A stretch of DNA of 64,000 nucleotides, from contig CDPCPM010000115.1 in assembly GCA_976551045.1 (NCBI GenBank), positions 8,122,001-8,186,000 of the forward strand, in the 5' to 3' direction. Shown piece by piece: positions 5,925 to 59,574 of the stretch (within the stretch, counting starts at the first letter, position 1; each line of letters starts with the position of its first letter). A program made the position numbers and the translations under genes. The DNA comes from Glaucostegus cemiculus (taxonomy: Eukaryota). The notes below the pieces were generated by a model, which saw only the letters and a list, made by a program, of their open reading frames with translations, was not told the origin of the DNA and searched no databases.

Positions 5925-6620
5925 CTGGGTTACGGAGTCAAGCTCCAGTTGAGAGCTTTGAGCACAGGTCTAGACTGTGACAAGGGAGTGCTCCACTATT
6001 GGATGAGATGCTAAACCAAGGTCCAACCTGCTGTTGGGTTGAAATAAAAGACCCCAATAGTACTACTTTGAGTAAGAGAAAGGGAATTCCTTTGATATCA
6101 AGCCAATATTTATATATTAAGCATCATGAACAGAAGTGATCTTGGATCTTGCTGAGCACAGGTTGCCTGCTATGTTTCATAAATCACAAGATAACAAGAC
6201 AAGGGAGCAGAAGTAGACCATTCAGCCCATCGAATCTGCTCCAAAGGGAAGGGGGGAGAAAGGGGGGGGAGAAAAAATTATTCTAACCCCAAATTCCAGC
6301 CTTACCTCCGTATCTCTTGATACCTTGACCAATTAGATATCTATCTATCTCCTTTTTGAATATCTCCAATGATCTGGCCTCCACTACCTTCTGTGGCAAG
6401 GAATTCCATAAATTCACCACCCTCTGGCTAAAGGAATTTCTCCTCATCTCTGTTTTAAACCTGTACCCTCTAATTCTAAGGTTGTGCCCTCTGGTCCTGG
6501 ACTCCCCCACCAAGGGAAACAGCTTGGCCACATAAGTAACGGTAACTACTCTTCAAATACACTGTTCTCTGACTAATACCTTGGCTGTAAGAAGTTTTTT
6601 TTGTCGTCCTAAATTCATGA
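5925..6620 (+). mobile_element. Deu-domain SINE (SacSINE1/AmnSINE-like), interrupted by a CR1
   Basis: GGATGAGATGCTAAACCAAGGTCC...AAAGACCCCAATAGTACTACTTTGA...GGATCTTGCTG resembles the recalled Deu domain. The tail resumes at about 6535 (AACGGTAACTACTCTTCAAA..TTGGCTGTAA). Confidence 0.6.
6187..6533 (-). mobile_element. CR1 LINE 3' end (5'-truncated, relatively young)
   Basis: ORF 6283-6531 LFPLVGESRTRGHNLRIRG..FSQRVVNLWNSLP is the CR1 ORF2 C-terminus, followed by a 3'UTR and tail. Confidence 0.9.
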
Positions 6621-25192: not shown

Positions 25193-28100
25193 AGAACATA
25201 AGAAATAGGAGCAGGAGTAGGCCATCTGGCCTGTCGAGCCTGCTTCGCCATTCAACAAGATCATGGCTGATCTGGCCATGGACTCAGATCCACTTACCTG
25301 CCTTTTCCCCCATAGTCCTTAATTCCCCTAATAATGAAAAAGCTATCTAACTGTGTCTTATGTTCGATGAGGTAGCCTCTACTGCTTCCCTGGGCAAAGA
25401 ATTCCACATTGCAATCTTTCACCATTTAAATAATAATCTGATCTTCTATTTTTCCTTCTAAAGTGGATGACCTCATATTCACCAACATTGTACTCCATCT
25501 GCCAGACCCTCGCCCACTCACTTAATCTGTCTATGTCTCTGCAGATTCTCCGCATCCTCTACATGATTTGCTTTTCCAGTCAATTTAATGTCATCAGCAA
25601 ACTTGGATATGCTACACTCTGTCCCCTCTTCCTAATCATTAATGAGTATCGTGAACAGTTGCAGGCCCAGCACCAGCCCCTGTGGCACCCCGCTCACCAC
25701 TGATTGCCAACCAGAGAAACATGATTTATCCCAACTCTCTGCCTTCTATTGGTTAACTAATCATCTATCCATGTTAATAACTTATCCATAAAGTAAGGGT
25801 GTATGGAGTTGGGGTTAAATCTTTTATGCAGCACCTTATCAAACACCTTCTGGAAATTCAAGTATACAACATCCACCTGTTTCCCTCTGTCCACTGCACT
25901 CATTATATCCTCAAAAAACCCAGTAAGTTTATCAAACAGGGCCTGCCTTTCTTGAATCCATGTTGTGTCTGGAATGATGGAACCACTTCTATCCAAATGT
26001 CTCACTATTTATTCCTTAATGATAGCTTCAAGCATTTTCCTAACTACAGATGTTAAGCTAACTGGCCTGTAGTGTGCCTTTTGTAAACAGTGGTGTGACA
26101 TTTGCTGTCTTCCAATACACCAGGACCTGCCCAGAGTCCAGAGAATTTTGATAAATTATCACAAACGCCTCTACTATTCTTTCAGTACCCTAGGATGCAT
26201 CCCATGAGGACCAGGGAATTTGTCTACCTTTAGGGCCACTAGTTTGCTCACCACTACCTCTTCAGTGACAGTGATTGTACTAAGGTAGTGACCTCTCATC
26301 ACATCCATAACATCCTTTTGGCAATGTTAGACGTGTCCTCCACCGTGAAGACCAACACAAAATATCATTCAAGGCTTCAGCCATTCCCACATAACCGAAT
26401 ATTAATTCCCCCTCCTTATCTTCCAAGGGACCCAAGTTCACTTTAGCCACCCTTTTCCACTTTATATAATTATAAAAACTTTTACTATCTGTTTTTATAT
26501 TTTCTGCTAGTTTACCTTCATAATCTATCTTCCCTTTCCTTGTTGCTTGCTTAGTGGTTGTTTGTTGCTTTTTAAAGTTTTCCCAGTTTTCCAGTTTCCC
26601 ATTCCTCTTGGTGACTTTGTATGCATGAGCTTTTAGCTTGATGCCTTCTTTTATTTCCTTAGTTATCCAAGGCTGGCTCTCCCCACCCTTACTGTCCTTG
26701 TTTTTAACTGGAATATACTTTTGTTGAGAACGGTGAAAAATCTCTTTGAAAGTCTTCCACTGTTCCTCAACAGTCCCACCATATAGCCTGTGTTCCCAGT
26801 CTACGCCAGCCAACTCCTCCCTCATCCCATTGTAGTCTCCCTTGTTTAGGCAAAATACATTGGTTTTAAATCAAGCTAATGCACCCTCTATTTGTATGAG
26901 AAATTCAATCATATTATGATCATTCATTCCAAGAGGATCCCTAACTACAAGTTTGTTAATTTTACCTGTCTCATTGTACAGGACCAGATCTAAGATAGCA
27001 TTTTCCCTTGCAGGTTCACTAACATGCTGTTCAAGGAAGCTGTTACAGATGCATTCTTTGAAGCTTTCCTCAAGACTACCTCAACCAACTTGATTTGCCC
27101 GATCTATGTGGAGTAAAAGTCCCCCATGACAACTGCCGTTCCATTCTTACATACATCAGATATTTCTTGGTTTATTGCCTGTGCCACTGTAATGTTATTA
27201 TTCAGTGGCCAATAGACAATTCCCATTTAATACCTTCCCTTCACTACTCTTAATCTCTACCCAGATGGACTCAACTTTCTGCTCCCTAGATCTTGTATCA
27301 TCTCTCACTATCGCCCTGATCTCATTCTTAATTAAGAGCACTACTCCACCTCCCTTACCTTCCTGCCTATCCTTCCATATTACCTGATACCCTTGGATAT
27401 TTAATTCCCATGCATCTCCACCCTGCAACCACGTTTCTGTAATGGCCACTAAATCGTACCCCTTTTGTTTCAAATACTACAGGCATTCAGATAAAGAGCC
27501 CTTACACTCATTGTCCTTTTAGAATCCAGTAGCCTTTGTGTCCTTAGCACTTGACTTTTCTGGACTTCGCTTTTACTCTTCTCTTTTCCAACTTTTGCTA
27601 TGGTCTCTCCTTTGCTTCCCTCTGTCCTTCTGCATAGATTCCCATCTCCCTGCCATATTAGTTTAAGCCTTCCCTGTTACGAACCAGCAACAAAAGAAGC
27701 ACAATGAGTCATGATTCAGTGTTAAAAACTACTTTATTAATGGCTACTTATGATAATAAGTAAAATAAAAGTAAAAATGTTAGAATGTTAGAAGTAAAAA
27801 TGTTAAATCTTAAACATTAACCTCAAAAACGAAACTTGTAGTGTGTGTGTGACAAACTCCCAAACTCCAAATCCAGGAATAATTTTCAAAGTTTAGTTCA
27901 GCAAGCCGTAAAGTGAAACGTGAGCAAAGGCTTCTTCAGCAACCACCACTGACTGAAGACAAACTGTAGATGTAGAGAGAACAGAGGGTAATTGTGAAAT
28001 CCAAATGTTTCACTCTGAAACCCAAACGACACCTCAATGTCTACTCAGCAGTGAATACTCCACTGCATCTTCCTCACCCCGAAACTCAAATCGTGGCCGT

Positions 28101-28558
28101 CCACACAAATACCTGTCTCCTTCTGCAGGTCAACAACAAAGTATCTATTTCTGCCACCCCGAAAAGCATCCGAGATGTAGCCGTCCACACGAATACCTGT
28201 TTTCCTCTACAGAGGATTCCAACTGACTGCTTCAAAATCACCATTATGTCCTTTATCTTCTGTTGTCATAACCATGCCACACACACCACTATGCTCTATC
28301 TTAAAGGACATTCACCAATAGTAACCCAGTTCGTAACACTCCCCAACAGCAGTAGGAAACAATCCCCCTAGGACATTGATCCCAGTCCTGCCCAATGTAG
28401 ACCATTTGGTTTGTGTGGTCCCACCTCCCCTGAACCAGTTTCAATGCCCAAGAAATCTAAAACCCTCCCTCCTGCACCACTGCTCAAGCCACATATTCAT
28501 CCTAACTACACTGTTATTCCTACTCTGACTAGCACATGGCACAGGTAGTAATCCTGAG
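25193..28558 (-). mobile_element. Long CR1 LINE with internal deletions: ORF1 esterase end, APE endonuclease, RT and 3' end; interrupted by an LTR
   Basis: ORF 27198-27473 YDLVAITETWL..DRQEGKGGGVVLLIK (APE), 26280-26825 linker, 25757-26005 VDVVYLNFQKVFDKV (RT), tail at 25193. 28344-28558 translates to SGLLPVPCASQSRN..WLEQWCRREGFRF (ORF1). Confidence 0.93.
27675..28338. mobile_element. Solo LTR (664 bp) nested in CR1
   Basis: 10-bp terminal inverted repeat TGTTACGAAC...GTTCGTAACA; 5-bp TSD TTCCC/CTCCC. Removing it restores GTTTAAGCCCTCCCCAACAGC, comparable to 59322-59345. Confidence 0.88.
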
Positions 28559-30154
28559 AGATGAAATGAGGAATTTAAATTGTGATTTCTTCATGCTATA
28601 AATCATTCAATTTATTGGATAGATGCATTGCATAACTAAATACAGACTGATGCACTTAAAAAGACTTGAGTCGATTTTCTGGTCCAAAAGATGCAATTTC
28701 TGGAAGTAAGTGATCCCGTTGATGAGTGCCTATGGACATGATCCAGTGACTGAAGCAGCGCTCTCATTCCTCCAACTCCTCGCGCTGCTTCCCCCCCCAA
28801 CCCCCATCCAGCTCTTGTTTTACCCATAGTACAACATGAAGGTGCAGATCTGTCACATTGATCGGTATTTAGCTTGGTGTTGTTTTGCTTCTTCTGGTTT
28901 TGCAATTAGTCACATGCATGCGATTTAGCCCCTGTGACTGGAACGAATTCCTAATGAATTGGATTGTATAATTAACCATGGCTGGTCAAGAGAAATGATT
29001 TTAAACAAAAATTTCAGTCTGACATTCTCTCAAGAGGCCCTCTCCTTGAAGTTGGCAGCTTTTCTCGATAGCTTCAGGCACATAATTTTTGCACTGATGC
29101 CCAACTTGCATGGCCATTAAGGACACTAGAGGAGCTCCATACTTCTCCCTGCTGAGGAGAAGCTGATGTTTCACTGTATTCCATCTTAATTTCCATGAAG
29201 CCAAGTTAACACAGAATGCTCATGGGAGCCTTGGGGATGACCTTGTGGCTAGCTGTGCGATTGCCATTCCTCCCATGCCCATAAATAATTAATTCTGTAA
29301 AGGTAGGCTAAAAAAATTGCTCATGGTGCATTATGCCCCGGAGCGTCTAAATCATTGATGCCCACAACACGTTGTTGAAGAGACTGTTCTCTCAGGTTAT
29401 CCACATCATAGTTAGTTAGCAACTTAGATATTGACAAGGACAATGAGTCAGACAGATAAAGGGACCAGAGCGAAGTTTCTGACTTTGACCTTTGTCCAAC
29501 AGGAATATGATACTTGTTACCTGAATGGATAAGGACAAGTATTGCAAAGAGGCTGGAAAATTTGAACTAAAACTGAATGTTACAGTGGTAGTTGATAATA
29601 TCATTAGTCAGGATAGATACATTGCCTGTTCAGTGGTAGGGTTAAGTTTGATTCCTCTGTGCTGGGGAAACATTTTGGCGATTGTGTTACATACAGTATT
29701 TACTGTAAACAATAATCATTACTCTAAGGATCTCACCCCTTTAAGAATTGTGTCATGTGACTAATTACTAGTGGGCTGTAGCAAAGTTATTAGAAAATTC
29801 CAGAGGCAATGTATGATGACCAATCTACACATATTCTGAGCTCCTTGCGATACCTGTCTGTCAGTACATTCTATGATGAACTTGTTTAGGGCACACACAC
29901 TTCACAGTGCTTGAGGAGTAACAGCCAGAAGCATGGCCCACCTGGGAGACAGCGGCTAAAGCAGACGTAAGAATAAGGTTCTGCCGAAGGAGTTTGACGA
30001 ACCAAGGGCTGAAATAGATTTTGCTGCATATCAGAGGGAATAATCTCTGGAATTCTTGCCAAATTATCCCAAACGGCACACAACCAACCAAATAAGAGAG
30101 CTGAAGGCACAGCTTAATTCAGGGGCTTTGATTCATGGAACACGGGCAGCAATA

Positions 30155-46799: not shown

Positions 46800-47468
46800 T
46801 AACAAAGGACTGCAGATGCTGGAATCTAGAAGAAAAACATGATGATGCTGGAGGAACTCAGCAGGCCAGGCAGCATCCATGGAGAAAAGCAGGTGGTCAA
46901 CGTTTCGGGTCAGGACCCTTCTTCAGAACTGAAGATAGGAAAAGGGGAACCCAATATATAGGAGGGAAAAGCAGAGCAGTGACAGATGGATAAAAGAGGG
47001 GAGGCGGGGTGGACACAAGGGTGATAGGTAGATGTAGGTAAGAGACAGTAATAGGCAGGTGCAGGGGAGGAGGGGAGAGCCGATCCACTGGGGGATGGGT
47101 CAAGAGTAAGGAGAGAGAGGAAAAAAGGCTAGGAAAGGGAAGAAGAGAAGAAGCATGGTGGGGGGGGAGGATAGTGGTGAAAGGGGGTGGGGATTACCTA
47201 AAGTGGGAGAATTCCCTGTGTTGCCTCTACCAATCACCTCGCAGTCTCTTTTGCTATTTCCACTCTCCCCTCCTCCACCTGCCTATCACCCCTCCTCACC
47301 TGGATCCACCTGTCGTTGCCAGCTCATGCTCCACCTCTATCTTTCAGTCCAGATGAAGGGTCTCAACTCAAAAAGCCAACTGTTGGTTTCCCTCCACAGA
47401 TGCTGCCTGACCCACTGAGTTCCTCCCACATCTTGTTTGTTGCTCCAGGTTTCAGCATCTGTAGACTC
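46800..47468. mobile_element. Penelope-type element: - strand repeat (46800-47212) abutting a + strand repeat (about 47215-47468)
   Basis: TGCAGATGCTGGAATCT.. at the left and ..TTTCAGCATCTGTAGAC at the right are inverted counterparts. Confidence 0.8.
46896..46929 (-). ncRNA. Putative minimal type I hammerhead ribozyme (Penelope-associated)
   Basis: The - strand reads GUU-CUGAAGA-A-GGGU(CCUG)ACCC-GAAAC-GUU^GAC: core boxes intact, stem II present, palindromic ACGU helix III, 3-bp stem I. Confidence 0.65.
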
Positions 47469-48254
47469 TGATGCTGATTCCTCTTCATCATGTTTCACAG
47501 AGTAACTAGAGCACGGAAACAAGCCAAGGTGGGAAGGCATGGACATGGTGGGCTGAAGGGCCTGTGCTGTATGACTCGACGAGTCTAATCCCATTGGCCC
47601 AGCTGTCCCCACCAATGAGCATGGCAGAACAGGAAGAGGAAGTGGACAAGGCAGAAGAGGAGGAGGAGCCTATGCTGGTTCCCAGTTGAGCACTGCTATC
47701 AGTCCCACTCTGCGCATGTCCCTTGGCCTTCAGCCCAATCGGAAAGTGTCATGCAACAAGGAACTATGGCTGACCCTGCAAGAGACCCGGCAACAAAGTC
47801 CACGGCTGCTGCCCATGGGGCGATGGAGTTGGACAGGAGGGGTGACGTGCTGTGCTTGCAGGGAGTCTGGGGCTCCTCCAGACCATCCACTCAAAGGCAA
47901 CAGAAGCAGACAGCTGTGGAGTTCAGTGGCAGAAGCTGATACCCCGAGGGCAGGACTACAGAGCCGTGAGAAGTGTAATGATGTCACGGGGCAGCCATGC
48001 TTAGTCACTGTCCCAGCAATAGCGCCTCTAACCTCGGGCATTGCCGAGTGCAGGACCTTGGGGAAGGGCTGTTCCAATCTTACATAGGGCCTTGCGCAGA
48101 GGCTGGAGCCCAACCTTTCCGGCACGGAAAAGAAGGTGACTCCATTGGTCTACTTGAGGACCCAATGAGAGTGCAGTGTCTGACAACCCGTGACTCAGCC
48201 TTCGCAGTAGCTTTAACAAAAGTACAATGCCAGCTTAGACTGTTCGCATTATAT

Positions 48255-49010: not shown

Positions 49011-49173
49011 TATATTGTGAGAGAGTGGTGAGGAAGAGAGAAGCAAGGGGGATGAATAAGGCTGATTGATTTAGAGATTTGGTTTGCAATGACTATTTTG
49101 TGGTGCATTTTATTTTCGCCTTGTGGTCCAGGGATGGTCAGAAGCAGGGGGTGGGTTAGGTCTGGGGCAGTGA

Positions 49174-50271
49174 ATGGCCGTGTGGATTCAGAATTGGCTT
49201 GCCTGTAGAAAGCAGAGGGTTGTGGTGGAGGGGGTGCATTCAGATTGGAGGGCTGTGACTAGTGGTGTCCCAGAAGGGTCGGTTCTGGGACCTCTACTTT
49301 TCATGATATTTATTAATGACTTGGATGAGGGGGGTAGAAGGGTGGGTTAGCAAGTTTGCAGATGACACAAAGGTTGGAGGTGTTGTGGAGAGTGTAGAGA
49401 ACTGTAGGAGATTGCAGAGGGATATTGATAGGATGCAGAGCTGGGCTGAGAAGTGGCAGATGGAGTTCAGTCCAGAGAAGTGCAAGGTGATACACTTTGG
49501 AAAGACAAACTTCAAGGTGGAGTACAAGGTTAATGGCAGGATACTGAGTAGTGTGGAGGAGCAGAGGGATCTAGGGGTTCATATCCACAGATCACTGAAA
49601 GCTGCCTCGCAGGTGGATAGGATAGTTAAGAAAGTTTATGAGGTGTTAGCTTTCATAAGTTGGGGGATCGAGTTTAAGAGCCGAGAGGTAATGATGCAGC
49701 TTTACAAAACTCTGGCTAGACCACACTTGGAGTACTGTGTCCAGTTCTGGTCGCCGCATTATAGGAAGGATGTGGAAGCATTGGAAAGGGAGCAGAGGAG
49801 ATTTACCAGGATGCTGCCTGGTTTGGAGAGTATGGATTATGAGGAGAGACTAAGGGAGCTAAGGCTTTACTCTTTGGAGAGAAGGAGAATGAGGGGAGAC
49901 ATGATATAGGTGTACAAAATATTAAGAGGAATAGATAGAGTAAACAGCCAGTGCCTCTTTCCCAGGGCACCAATGCTCAATACAAGAGGGCATGGCTTTA
50001 AAGTAATGAGTGGGAGGTTCAAGAGAGATATCAGTTTTTCACCCAGAGAGTGGTTGGTGCATGGAATGCACTGCCTGGGGTAGTGGTGGAGGCAGGTACA
50101 CTGGTCAAGTTCAAGAGGTTGTTAGATAAGCATATGGAGGAATTCAAAATGGGGGGATATGTGGGAGGAAGGGGTTAGATAGTCTTAAGTGAGGTTTAAA
50201 GGGCAGCACAACATGGTGGGCCAAAGGGCCTGTATTGCGCTGTATTGTTCTGTGGTTCTATGGTTTCTATG
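49174..50271 (+). mobile_element. CR1 LINE RT and 3' end, young 5'-truncated copy
   Basis: [14 protein letters not shown], then ORF 49316-49909 SKFADDTKVGG..RPHLEYCVQFWSPHYRKD; tail (TTCTATGG)n. Confidence 0.95.
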
Positions 50272-58159: not shown

Positions 58160-58492
58160 TACAGGAAATACAATATAATCTTTCTTTACATTCTCTTACA
58201 ATGCATCAATGCTGCTTGCATTTTCTCCTGAAACAATACATCTATAAAGTGTTTGTTACACAGGACCCAGCCCCCCAGTGACCCAAAACTCTGATCCTTC
58301 CCCATAGAGCCTTTGCAGTGACAGCACTGAGTGTCAGTGTGTCCCTCAGCACATACTCCTGCACCCTGGAATATGGAATCTCCATCCACCTGGGAAAGGC
58401 TTCTCCAATTCCTAAGCGATATTTGCCGTGGTAGCACCTGTTTGCCATTTCCAGATCCCCCTTACATAGGAGGTGCCATGCACTAACTAGTA

Positions 58493-58803
58493 CATAGAAC
58501 GTAGAACAGTACAGTACGCTGCAGGCCCTTCAGCCCACAAGGTTGTGCCGACCTTTAAACCTCGCCTACGAGTATCTAACCCCTTCCTCCCACATATCCC
58601 TCTATTTTAAATTCCTCTATATGCTTATCTAGTAATCTCTTGAATTTGACCAATGTACCTGCCTCCCTCCACCACTGCCCCAGGCAGCGTGTTCCATGCC
58701 CCAACCACTCTCTGGGTAAAAAAACTTCCTCTGCTATCTCCCTTGAACTTCCCACCCATTACTTTAAAGCCAGGCCCTCTTGTATTGGGCATTGGTGCCC
58801 TTG
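58493..58803 (-). mobile_element. CR1 3' end
   Basis: Reverse complement closely follows 49960-50260; tail CATAGAACGTAGAAC. Confidence 0.9.
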
Positions 58804-59072
58804 GGACTATGTTAACAATTCAATACTATTCCTTTGAGACTAACTCCACTTGCTTCGCTCTGAACTGGAGTTGTACCATTCAGTTACAGGTCTGTCTACA
58901 GAGCAGGCCTCAGAGAATTTCATTGGCTGTACTCTGGGACTCTGCTATTTAATTCAATACTTAGAGTAAGTGATTGGGATTATTAGAATAAGTTGAATGA
59001 ACCACGTGATCTGTCGCTTCCCCCTTTAGTTCATCACCCAGAAGAGGTGTTACACTTTGTGGAACAAAGTAA

Positions 59073-59560
59073 TCAATAGACAATAGACAATAGGAGCAGA
59101 AGTAGATCATTCGGCCCTTTGAGTCTGCTCCACCATTTTGAGATCATGGCCAATCCTCAACACTCAACATCCCCCTCCTGCCCCGTCCCCACATCCCTCG
59201 ACTCCCCCATCCACAAGAAACCCATCCAGCTCCCTCCCGAAAGTGCCCAGAGAATTGGCCTCCACTGCCCCCTGAGGCAGCGCACTCCACAAACTCACAA
59301 CCTTCTCCCCCTACAAATTTAGTTTAAACCCCCCCCCGAGCAGCACTAGCAAACCTTCCTGCAAGCATGTCAATACCCCTCCAGTTCAGGTGTAAACCGT
59401 CCCGTTGGAACAGTTCCCACCTTCCCTGGAACAAATCCCAGTTATCCATAAACCTGAAGCCCTCCCTCTTGCACCATCCCCTTAGCCACGTATTAATCTG
59501 CCTAATCTTCCTATTCCTCTCCTCACTCTCACGTGGCACAGGTAGCAATCCTGAGATTGT
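59073..59560 (-). mobile_element. CR1 chimera: ORF1 (SGNH esterase) C-terminus joined directly to the 3' terminus
   Basis: ISGLLPVPRESEERNRKIRQINTWLRGWC..RDGLHLN (59324-59560); 3' end with (CAATAGA)n tail at 59073-59092. Confidence 0.9.
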
Positions 59561-59574
59561 CACCCATTGTAACA

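What the first reader, a model, noticed from the sequence alone, without database searches (positions are those of the whole stretch)
59140..59305. CR1 3' end that looks ADAR hyper-edited (A-to-I) before reverse transcription
Seen: 59161-59280 has 59 C and 18 T in 120 nt, while the homologous CR1 end at 6301-6420 has 35 C and 42 T (hand counts). Aligned words differ mostly by T-to-C: TATCTCTTGA vs CATCCCTCGA, CTATCTATCTCCTTTTTGAA vs CCATCCAGCTCCCTCCCGAA, CCTTCTG vs CCCCCTG, ATTCCATAAATTCAC vs ACTCCACAAACTCAC. The element is on the - strand, so this is A-to-G on its RNA. The surviving T's are followed by C (12), G (5), T (1) and A (0), so UA and AA are nearly absent on the RNA strand. Established: ADAR prefers 5' neighbours U>A>C>G, and reverse transcriptase reads inosine as G. 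Inference: a germline genomic fossil of ADAR hyper-editing of a LINE RNA. The direction is opposite to CpG decay and to APOBEC G-to-A change. Caveat: the comparison copy belongs to a different subfamily.
Basis: partly seen in the sequence, partly recalled or inferred. Interest (0 to 1): 0.8.

Follow-up and report, generated by a model that had tools for sequence, protein, structure and literature searches.

The report
ADAR-edited retrotransposon founded a subfamily
About twenty scattered copies of a jumping gene in this genome share one dense patch of A-to-G changes, likely written into the RNA of a single ancestor by the editing enzyme ADAR and then copied into germline DNA and multiplied, which would show RNA editing becoming heritable and founding a transposon subfamily.

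Summary
The C-rich patch is real, but it is not a one-off fossil. The window holds a 5'-truncated copy of a non-autonomous CR1 derivative (esterase ORF1 joined to the last ~230 nt of its parent LINE). Twenty dispersed copies share its tail. Against 63 other copies, all 21 fixed tail differences are A>G on the RNA strand (21 of 40 A in 135 nt, 0 of 30 T); the 1.4 kb upstream shows 11 mixed changes. Editing by 5' neighbour: U 7/7, A 7/9, C 6/10, G 1/14, the ADAR order. The G's are old germline DNA: the CpGs they created decayed as much as older CpGs (about 19% vs 21%), while 0 of 269 reverted at other edited sites. The autonomous parent has A, and the changes wreck conserved ORF2 residues. Two single-copy A>G clusters elsewhere (L207, L242) show recurrence. 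Best reading: ADAR hyper-edited one source RNA before reverse transcription, and that copy became a master giving about 16 of 87 sampled derivative copies. The pairing partner was not found and no RNA run was available. Ten literature searches found no such case; a 2016 review calls the question undetermined.

The parts
59074..59565 (-). 5'-truncated copy of a non-autonomous CR1 derivative (full length about 1.6 kb: 5' UTR, esterase ORF1, last ~230 nt of the parent LINE); member of the edited subfamily (group C)
   Evidence: Copies at 93-97% to 59565; anatomy; empty site in organisms B and C joins 59073 to 59561 with 3 other letters, no target duplication
59319..59565 (-). 3' end of ORF1 (GDSL/SGNH esterase), stop at 59319-59321; a G run at 59329-59337 varies in length between copies and shifts the frame here
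   Evidence: ORF1 of full copy L022 hits Lipase_GDSL_2, E 1e-12; translations; alignment
59313..59313 (-). C>T marker just upstream of the junction, in 17 of 19 group C copies and 0 of 75 other derivative copies
59302..59307 (-). Junction of the ~2.8 kb internal deletion that removed nearly all of ORF2; 5-base microhomology, no GT donor, so not a splice
59164..59307 (-). Vestigial C-terminus of ORF2, recoded by the A>G changes: parent ...SLWNALPQRAVEANSLGTFKKELDRFLIDRGIKGYGDKAGTGY, window ...SLWSALPQGAVEANSLGTFGRELDGFLVDGGVEGCGDGAGGGC
59151..59285 (-). Edited patch: 21 A>G sites fixed in group C. On the + strand C at 59151, 59168, 59174, 59175, 59183, 59184, 59192, 59199, 59202, 59208, 59212, 59214, 59223, 59227, 59234, 59237, 59238, 59271, 59281, 59285; 59273 is back to T, as CpG decay would give
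59094..59150 (-). 3' UTR with predicted terminal hairpin, spared by the editing in group C (1 of 19 A in the last part vs 20 of 41 before it)
   Evidence: local fold
59074..59093 (-). 3' terminal short repeats (CTATTGT)n
   Evidence: shared by all copies

Best explanation
Twenty dispersed copies of a non-autonomous CR1 derivative share a 135-nt patch of 21 A>G changes that likely arose when ADAR hyper-edited the tail of one source RNA, which was then likely reverse-transcribed into germline DNA and became a master element. Shown: the changes are A>G only, on the RNA strand, clustered in the tail, ordered by 5' neighbour as ADAR is, derived from an A-rich parent, as old as the insertions, and carried by separate insertions. 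Inferred: the tail was double-stranded with an antisense CR1 tail (an inverted neighbour in a read-through transcript, or an antisense RNA); the parent's ORF2 protein copied inosine as G; the edits were tolerated because this element no longer uses the ORF2 remnant; the last ~80 nt stayed unedited because the reverse transcriptase needs them (weakest step).
For: 21 of 21 fixed tail differences are A>G; upstream 11 mixed, 2 A>G. A 21/40 vs T 0/30, p=4.5e-7; tail 21/60 A vs upstream 2/337, p=4e-17. 5' U 7/7, A 7/9, C 6/10, G 1/14, p=3e-5; ADAR1/2 order is U>A>C>G and long duplexes reach 40-50% conversion (PMC11019741, passages); here 52%. Without the 5 sites where a sister subfamily also has G: 16 sites, 5' G 1/14, p=3e-4. 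Parent A-rich with intact ORF2 end. CpGs made by the edits: 11 G>A plus 10 C>T in about 108, vs 0 of 269 reversions at non-CpG sites, matching 75/355 at older CpGs. 19 copies, 19 different 3' flanks, 5' ends from column 18 to 1367, both strands. Recurrence: L207, 33 A>G of 47 tail differences vs 3 of 46 upstream, single copy, nearest upstream relative unedited; L242, autonomous type, 19 A>G of 24, single copy. Controls: at most 2 T>C per tail in 95 derivative copies; best 150-nt run in 70 autonomous copies A>G 15 vs T>C 4, G>A 6, C>T 6. ADAR-family deaminase exons on 7 contigs.
Against: No duplex partner identified: folding 4 unedited full copies gave no long consistent helix over the patch (a fifth was mis-indexed); no full-tail inverted neighbour within 10 kb of 10 full-length group B/C copies, only a partial one beside L016. 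The 3' G preference is not significant (11/18 vs 10/22, p=0.36). L242 has a weak context (5' U 3/15, A 8/24, C 3/22, G 5/36). ORF1 variants are mosaic across all groups (91 of 105 site pairs fail the four-gamete test), so group C is not a clean clade upstream and the master cannot be named. Five of the 21 G's also occur in a sister subfamily. Short-read contigs confirm only the 5' end of the patch.
Confidence: 0.85

Rival explanations
1. Each copy comes from an independently edited RNA of one unedited source locus; no edited master existed.
For: Independent events hit many of the same adenosines: L207 shares 17 of the 21 sites.
Against: In 18 copies (L015 left out) 269 of 269 cells at the 15 non-CpG sites are G, and the only losses are at new CpGs. 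L207 and L242 differ from group C at many sites, as independent editing should. A non-editing marker at 59313 travels with the patch (17 of 19).
Confidence: 0.03
2. The G-rich tail was captured from, or retained from, another CR1 lineage that is natively G-rich.
For: A sister autonomous subfamily has G at 5 of the 21 sites; the family is mosaic. This may explain part of group B, where 4 of 7 G's match the sister.
Against: Group C carries none of the sister's other 12 diagnostic letters. The changes break residues kept in all autonomous copies translated (WN, FKK, GY). No donor appeared in five searches.
Confidence: 0.04
3. One edited copy spread its patch into existing insertions by gene conversion rather than by retrotransposition.
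For: Upstream alleles are mosaic in group C; L015, L024 and L116 carry partial patches.
Against: All 19 group C tails that reach the junction are derivative type although autonomous tails are far more common (1 of 30 unselected tails was derivative). Partial copies fit conversion in the other direction (L015 has the parent's letter inside its unedited tract). New CpGs are as decayed as old ones. The editing origin would stand either way.
Confidence: 0.04
4. A non-ADAR process: GC-biased gene conversion, reverse-transcriptase error under nucleotide imbalance, APOBEC or CpG decay read in the wrong direction, or an assembly artefact.
For: The net change raises GC; the middle of the patch was not covered by short-read contigs.
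Against: 0 of 30 T changed, against GC bias; polarity is A to G, against APOBEC and CpG decay; 15 of 21 sites are not CpG; 5'-G avoidance is not expected of polymerase error (own knowledge). Same letters at 20 loci on both strands, with CpG decay on top, and a 77-nt short-read contig carrying 4 edited sites and the marker with no mismatch, argue against artefact.
Confidence: 0.04

Closest known systems
APOBEC DNA editing of retrotransposons fixed in vertebrate genomes (PMC4866542, PMC3880073, PMC2873906; passages seen)
   Same: A host deaminase leaves a clustered, strand-biased, one-type change in a retroelement copy that is inherited.
   Different: Those are G>A made on cDNA; this is A>G made on RNA with ADAR context. 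PMC4866542 does not contain the word ADAR and filters for G>A over A>G; PMC3880073 found no G>A signal in lizard CR1/L2. Here the edited copy went on to found a subfamily.
ADAR hypermutation of retroviruses (RAV-1, avian leukosis virus, HTLV-2/STLV-3; as reviewed in PMC8586724, passages)
   Same: A>G clusters with 5' U/A/C preference pass through reverse transcription into DNA.
   Different: Exogenous viruses, partly in culture only; not germline, not a LINE, not amplified as a genomic subfamily. The primary papers could not be read.
A-to-I editing of inverted Alu and other repeats in RNA; ADAR1 restriction of L1 (PMC4982230, PMC5224506; passages)
   Same: Repeat RNA is ADAR's main substrate.
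   Different: Those edits stay in RNA; no editing was found in 2.5 kb of L1 RNA in HeLa cells. PMC4982230 states that a role for ADAR editing in Alu subfamily evolution 'has not yet been determined'.
Short internally deleted elements (SIDEs) from CR1, e.g. Persaeus from Zenon (PMC6740152, abstract only)
   Same: Non-autonomous internal-deletion derivative of a CR1 that amplifies beside its partner.
   Different: This one keeps the whole esterase ORF1; no editing is mentioned in that abstract.

Membership tests
ADAR hyper-editing signature | One change type, A>G on the transcribed strand | tested here: met
   21 of 21 fixed tail differences; 0 of 30 T changed
ADAR hyper-editing signature | Dense cluster with about half the adenosines changed | tested here: met
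   21 of 40 A in 135 nt; 2 of 337 upstream
ADAR hyper-editing signature | 5' neighbour order U>A>C>G | tested here: met
   7/7, 7/9, 6/10, 1/14; L207 7/9, 11/15, 8/13, 7/23; weak in L242
ADAR hyper-editing signature | 3' G preference | tested here: inconclusive
   11/18 vs 10/22, p=0.36
ADAR hyper-editing signature | Long double-stranded substrate over the patch | tested here: inconclusive
   No long internal helix; inverted tails lie beside some unedited copies (L022, L106) but none is tied to group C
ADAR hyper-editing signature | ADAR-family enzyme in the host | tested here: met
   26 exon matches to PF02137 on 7 contigs; paralogues (ADAR, ADAD, ADAT) not told apart
ADAR hyper-editing signature | Inosine or RNA-DNA mismatch seen in RNA, ADAR-dependent | not testable with these tools
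   No RNA holder listed
APOBEC-edited retroelement | G>A clusters on the element's sense strand | tested here: not met
   No fixed G>A in the tail; the parent is A-rich with intact ORF2
CR1 clade LINE (parent element) | Esterase ORF1 and APE-RT ORF2 | tested here: met
   Lipase_GDSL_2, Exo_endo_phos, RVT_1; architecture as in PMC13343379 (passages)
CR1 clade LINE (parent element) | Short-repeat 3' end, frequent 5' truncation, no long target duplication | tested here: met
CR1 clade LINE (parent element) | RT phylogeny places it in CR1 rather than L2 | not tested
Internally deleted non-autonomous LINE derivative (SIDE-like) | One shared deletion junction in many dispersed copies beside an autonomous partner | tested here: met
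   95 copies with the junction held; 13 of 100 listed junction-motif hits are the autonomous partner

The most novel reading that the evidence does not exclude
ADAR editing is a recurrent, heritable mutator of LINE-family elements in this germline: hyper-edited RNAs are retrotransposed repeatedly (at least three heavy events), and one became a master that produced about a fifth of its family, possible because the non-autonomous element no longer needs the ORF2 remnant while its 3' recognition region stayed unedited. This would be a first direct case of RNA editing creating a retrotransposon subfamily, and the edited versus spared positions would map what the CR1 reverse transcriptase needs.
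Probability: 0.65. Interest if true: 0.85.

Novelty: new variant of a known kind. Interest (0 to 1): 0.78.

Why it matters
A-to-I editing is usually treated as a change that dies with the RNA. Here it appears fixed in germline DNA and amplified. A review names the role of ADAR in retrotransposon subfamily evolution as undetermined (PMC4982230), and the genome scans whose passages were read looked for APOBEC G>A. The case gives a direct recipe: scan repeat families for sense-strand A>G clusters with 5'-G avoidance, in subfamily-diagnostic sites as well as single copies. It also warns that such a burst adds 17% divergence in one step (patch identity 83% to the parent type vs 95% elsewhere), which would mislead repeat dating. 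Amplified versus single-copy events offer a natural mutagenesis of the CR1 3' recognition signal.

Tried and rejected
One-off fossil: rejected. Splicing as the origin of the ORF1-tail join: rejected, no GT donor. Internal hairpin as substrate: no long consistent helix in 4 folds. Inverted neighbours within 10 kb of 10 full-length group B/C copies: only a partial one (columns 1494-1634) 2.2 kb from L016. Naming the source locus by shared upstream alleles: failed through mosaicism; L119 is closest to one group C branch, L098 to L207. A ladder B to C: unresolved; B shares 6 of 7 sites with C, which site preference could give, and 4 of 7 with a sister subfamily. A double-A>G pattern in the ORF2 end and its T>C mirror both gave 0; uninformative, since L242 was missed through one extra change. 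Sequencing runs: no RNA holder listed. The middle of the patch had no contig at 96% in any of 4 runs; the tool filters records, so this hole is no evidence. In one search the tail index was misplaced, so its per-copy tallies are not used; one search repeats them. The TA/TT-poor stretch at 47381-47500 and the G-rich stretch at 49100-49280 were read and look ordinary. Earlier findings: nothing in 3 look-ups. Two papers were not held.

Full report
Observation. The comparison copy at 6294-6425 is only 73% alike, so I replaced it with the element's own family.

What the element is. A search of the own genome (2.85 Gb) with 59060-59340 gave 18 other copies at 94-98% and a second tier at 89-92% (40 of 2,559 candidates scored). 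Longer copies are about 1.6 kb: 5' UTR, an ORF1 with a GDSL esterase, then only the last ~230 nt of a LINE. The autonomous partner has the same ORF1, an APE-RT ORF2 and the same tail; the derivative lost about 2.8 kb at a 5-base microhomology, with no splice donor. The window copy is 5'-truncated. Contigs of organisms B and C join 59073 to 59561, so the site is empty there, while a contig of organism A spans the 5' junction without mismatch. The label CR1 fits the architecture in PMC13343379 (passages) but no RT tree was made. That the host is a cartilaginous fish is a recalled likeness, not tested.

The changes. I held 95 derivative copies: 19 group C (with the window), 9 group B, 4 odd (L024, L116, L152, L207) and 63 others used as a column-by-column yardstick. 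All 21 differences fixed in the group C tail are A>G on the RNA strand, within 135 nt (window 59151-59285); the 1.38 kb upstream has 11 differences of 5 types. 21 of 40 A changed and 0 of 30 T (p=4.5e-7); 21 of 60 tail A against 2 of 337 upstream (p=4e-17). By 5' neighbour: U 7/7, A 7/9, C 6/10, G 1/14 (p=3e-5); the 3' G preference is not significant. Bass's review gives U>A>C>G for ADAR1 and ADAR2 and 40-50% conversion in duplexes over 50 bp (PMC11019741, passages). Two of the 21 sites are common as G among the 63 (column 1471 in 22, column 1496 in 18), so the founder may have inherited those two; one site (1534) was C in the parent and A in most derivative copies before becoming G.

Polarity. 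A tail pattern has 4,136 matches; 93 of the 100 listed are the plain A-rich form and 2 are group C. Autonomous copies end ORF2 with WNALP...FKKELDRFL...GY; the window reads WSALP...FGRELDGFL...GC. A sister autonomous subfamily differs from the parent at 17 tail sites; group C matches it at 5 (all G) and at none of the other 12. Leaving those 5 out gives 16 A>G with 5' G 1/14, p=3e-4.

Real and old. Six edits made CpGs. In 18 copies (L015 left out as partial) these show 11 G>A and 10 C>T in about 108 cells; the 15 other sites show 269 G of 269. Older CpGs in ORF1 of the same copies are 21% decayed (75 of 355), as in the unedited copies (284 of 1,368). So the G's were present when the copies inserted. 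A 77-nt short-read contig of organism A carries four edited sites and the group marker without mismatch; the middle of the patch was not covered, which the tool says proves nothing. That run may be the assembly's own sample.

A subfamily, not a fossil. The 19 copies have 19 different 3' flanks and 5' ends from column 18 to 1367; a twentieth is truncated inside the tail. Four more searches returned no further member. In a listing chosen by the junction and blind to the edits, 16 of 87 derivative copies are group C (my count). The all-or-none pattern means one event fixed in DNA and then copied. Against this tidy picture, ORF1 variants are mosaic through the whole family (91 of 105 pairs of 15 sites fail the four-gamete test, with little linkage at any distance), so the master cannot be named, and L015, L024 and L116 carry partial patches. 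Spread by conversion is unlikely, because every group C tail that reaches the junction is derivative type while 29 of 30 unselected tails are not.

Recurrence. L207 (G000:C4, near 460.6 kb) is a single derivative copy with 33 A>G among 47 tail differences (one may be the parent's letter) and 3 among 46 upstream; 5' U 7/9, A 11/15, C 8/13, G 7/23; 17 sites are shared with group C. Its closest upstream relative is the unedited L098, so it is probably independent, though a second round on a group C copy is not excluded. L242 (G000:C50, near 14.575 Mb) is a single autonomous-type 3' fragment with 19 A>G of 24 differences reaching into ORF2; its context is weak. Both were found by searches aimed at G-rich tails, so they give no rate. 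Controls: none of 95 derivative tails has more than 2 T>C; among 70 autonomous copies (some are duplicates) the best 150-nt run is 15 A>G (L242) against 4 T>C, 6 G>A and 6 C>T. Group B (7 of 7 A>G) may be a lighter event but overlaps the sister subfamily at 4 sites and is left open.

Mechanism. Shown: type, strand, cluster, context, polarity, age, multiplicity, and ADAR-family deaminase exons in the genome. Inferred: the duplex. Folding found no long internal helix. The patch lies wholly in the part shared with thousands of dispersed tails, and the three A's between junction and first edit all follow G, so the duplex may have begun at the junction. Inverted tails do lie downstream of some full unedited copies (L022 at 1.2 kb, L106 at 0.4 kb), but none is tied to group C. 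Inferred: the parent's ORF2 protein copied the inosine RNA in trans, reading I as G (established for reverse transcriptases, PMC5224506). ADAR acting on the cDNA strand would give T>C on the RNA strand, which is not seen. Weakly inferred: selection on the 3' end. Group C has 1 of 19 A edited there against 20 of 41 before (p=0.001), the unamplified L207 has 11 of 19 and loses the predicted terminal hairpin; but this is one event against one, L242 is also nearly unedited there, and a shorter duplex would do as well.

What is known. Inherited deaminase scars in retroelements are known for APOBEC G>A (PMC4866542, PMC3880073, PMC2873906; passages). ADAR hypermutation passing into DNA is known for exogenous retroviruses (PMC8586724, passages). 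PMC4982230 says a role for ADAR editing in Alu subfamily evolution has not been determined. Ten searches (listings and abstract starts, seven aimed at this question) showed no germline A>G-edited LINE or subfamily. The library lacks most subscription journals, Carmi 2011 was not held, and no supplements were read, so absence from print is not established.

Verdict. Observation confirmed; interpretation right about ADAR, wrong about level. The thing is an ADAR-scarred retrotransposon subfamily with single-copy sister events. Confidence 0.85, new variant of a known kind, interest 0.78.

Noticed in passing
L207 (G000:C4:459.5-460.8 kb): Single-copy derivative with 33 A>G in 222 nt of tail, reaching into the 3' hairpin region; its upstream part also has many transversions (9 G>T, 6 A>T in 1,020 nt), unexplained.
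   Followed up: yes
L242 = L245:1501-1853 (G000:C50:14574848-14575200): Single-copy autonomous-type 3' fragment with 19 A>G of 24 differences, including a run of five A's all changed to G in the ORF2 end.
   Followed up: yes
ORF1 part of 94 derivative copies (L001-L164, L207): Non-CpG variants are shuffled with almost no linkage even at 20-60 nt; the same alleles occur in autonomous ORF1. Template switching, heavy gene conversion or recurrent mutation; unexplained.
   Followed up: partly
L020, L021, L023, L025, L028, L075, L086, L088, L115 (group B); about 17 copies such as L022, L026, L119: Two further tail haplotypes made only of A>G changes (7 sites; 2 sites), mostly at group C positions: lighter editing events or steps of a ladder.
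   Followed up: partly
L022:70-303 and L106:6370-6514: Full-length unedited derivative copies with an inverted CR1 tail 1.2 kb and 0.4 kb downstream: candidate loci for duplex-forming read-through RNA.
   Followed up: partly
L204, L208-L214, L074, L078, L081, L084: Sister autonomous subfamily (dozens of copies) differing from the parent at 17 tail sites.
   Followed up: partly
window 59329-59337 and the same place in other derivative copies: The G run at the end of ORF1 varies widely in length in derivative copies (about 6 to over 20) but is short and stable in the autonomous copies seen.
   Followed up: no
5' ends of L007, L016, L109, L119, L129, L135, L139, L141, L151: Tandem duplications of 40-230 nt of the 5' UTR in several full-length copies.
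   Followed up: no
L031/L037, L032/L038, L033/L039, L034/L036/L040, L055/L056, L111/L153: Near-identical copy pairs: segmental duplications or redundant assembly; they inflate the control sets slightly.
   Followed up: no
window 58492-58804, about 49100-50262, 6182-6243, 6294-6425, 25204-25352, 28419-28559: Other CR1-like fragments: another tail family just left of the finding and at 49961-50262 (83% alike), older tails, and an ORF1 fragment.
   Followed up: no
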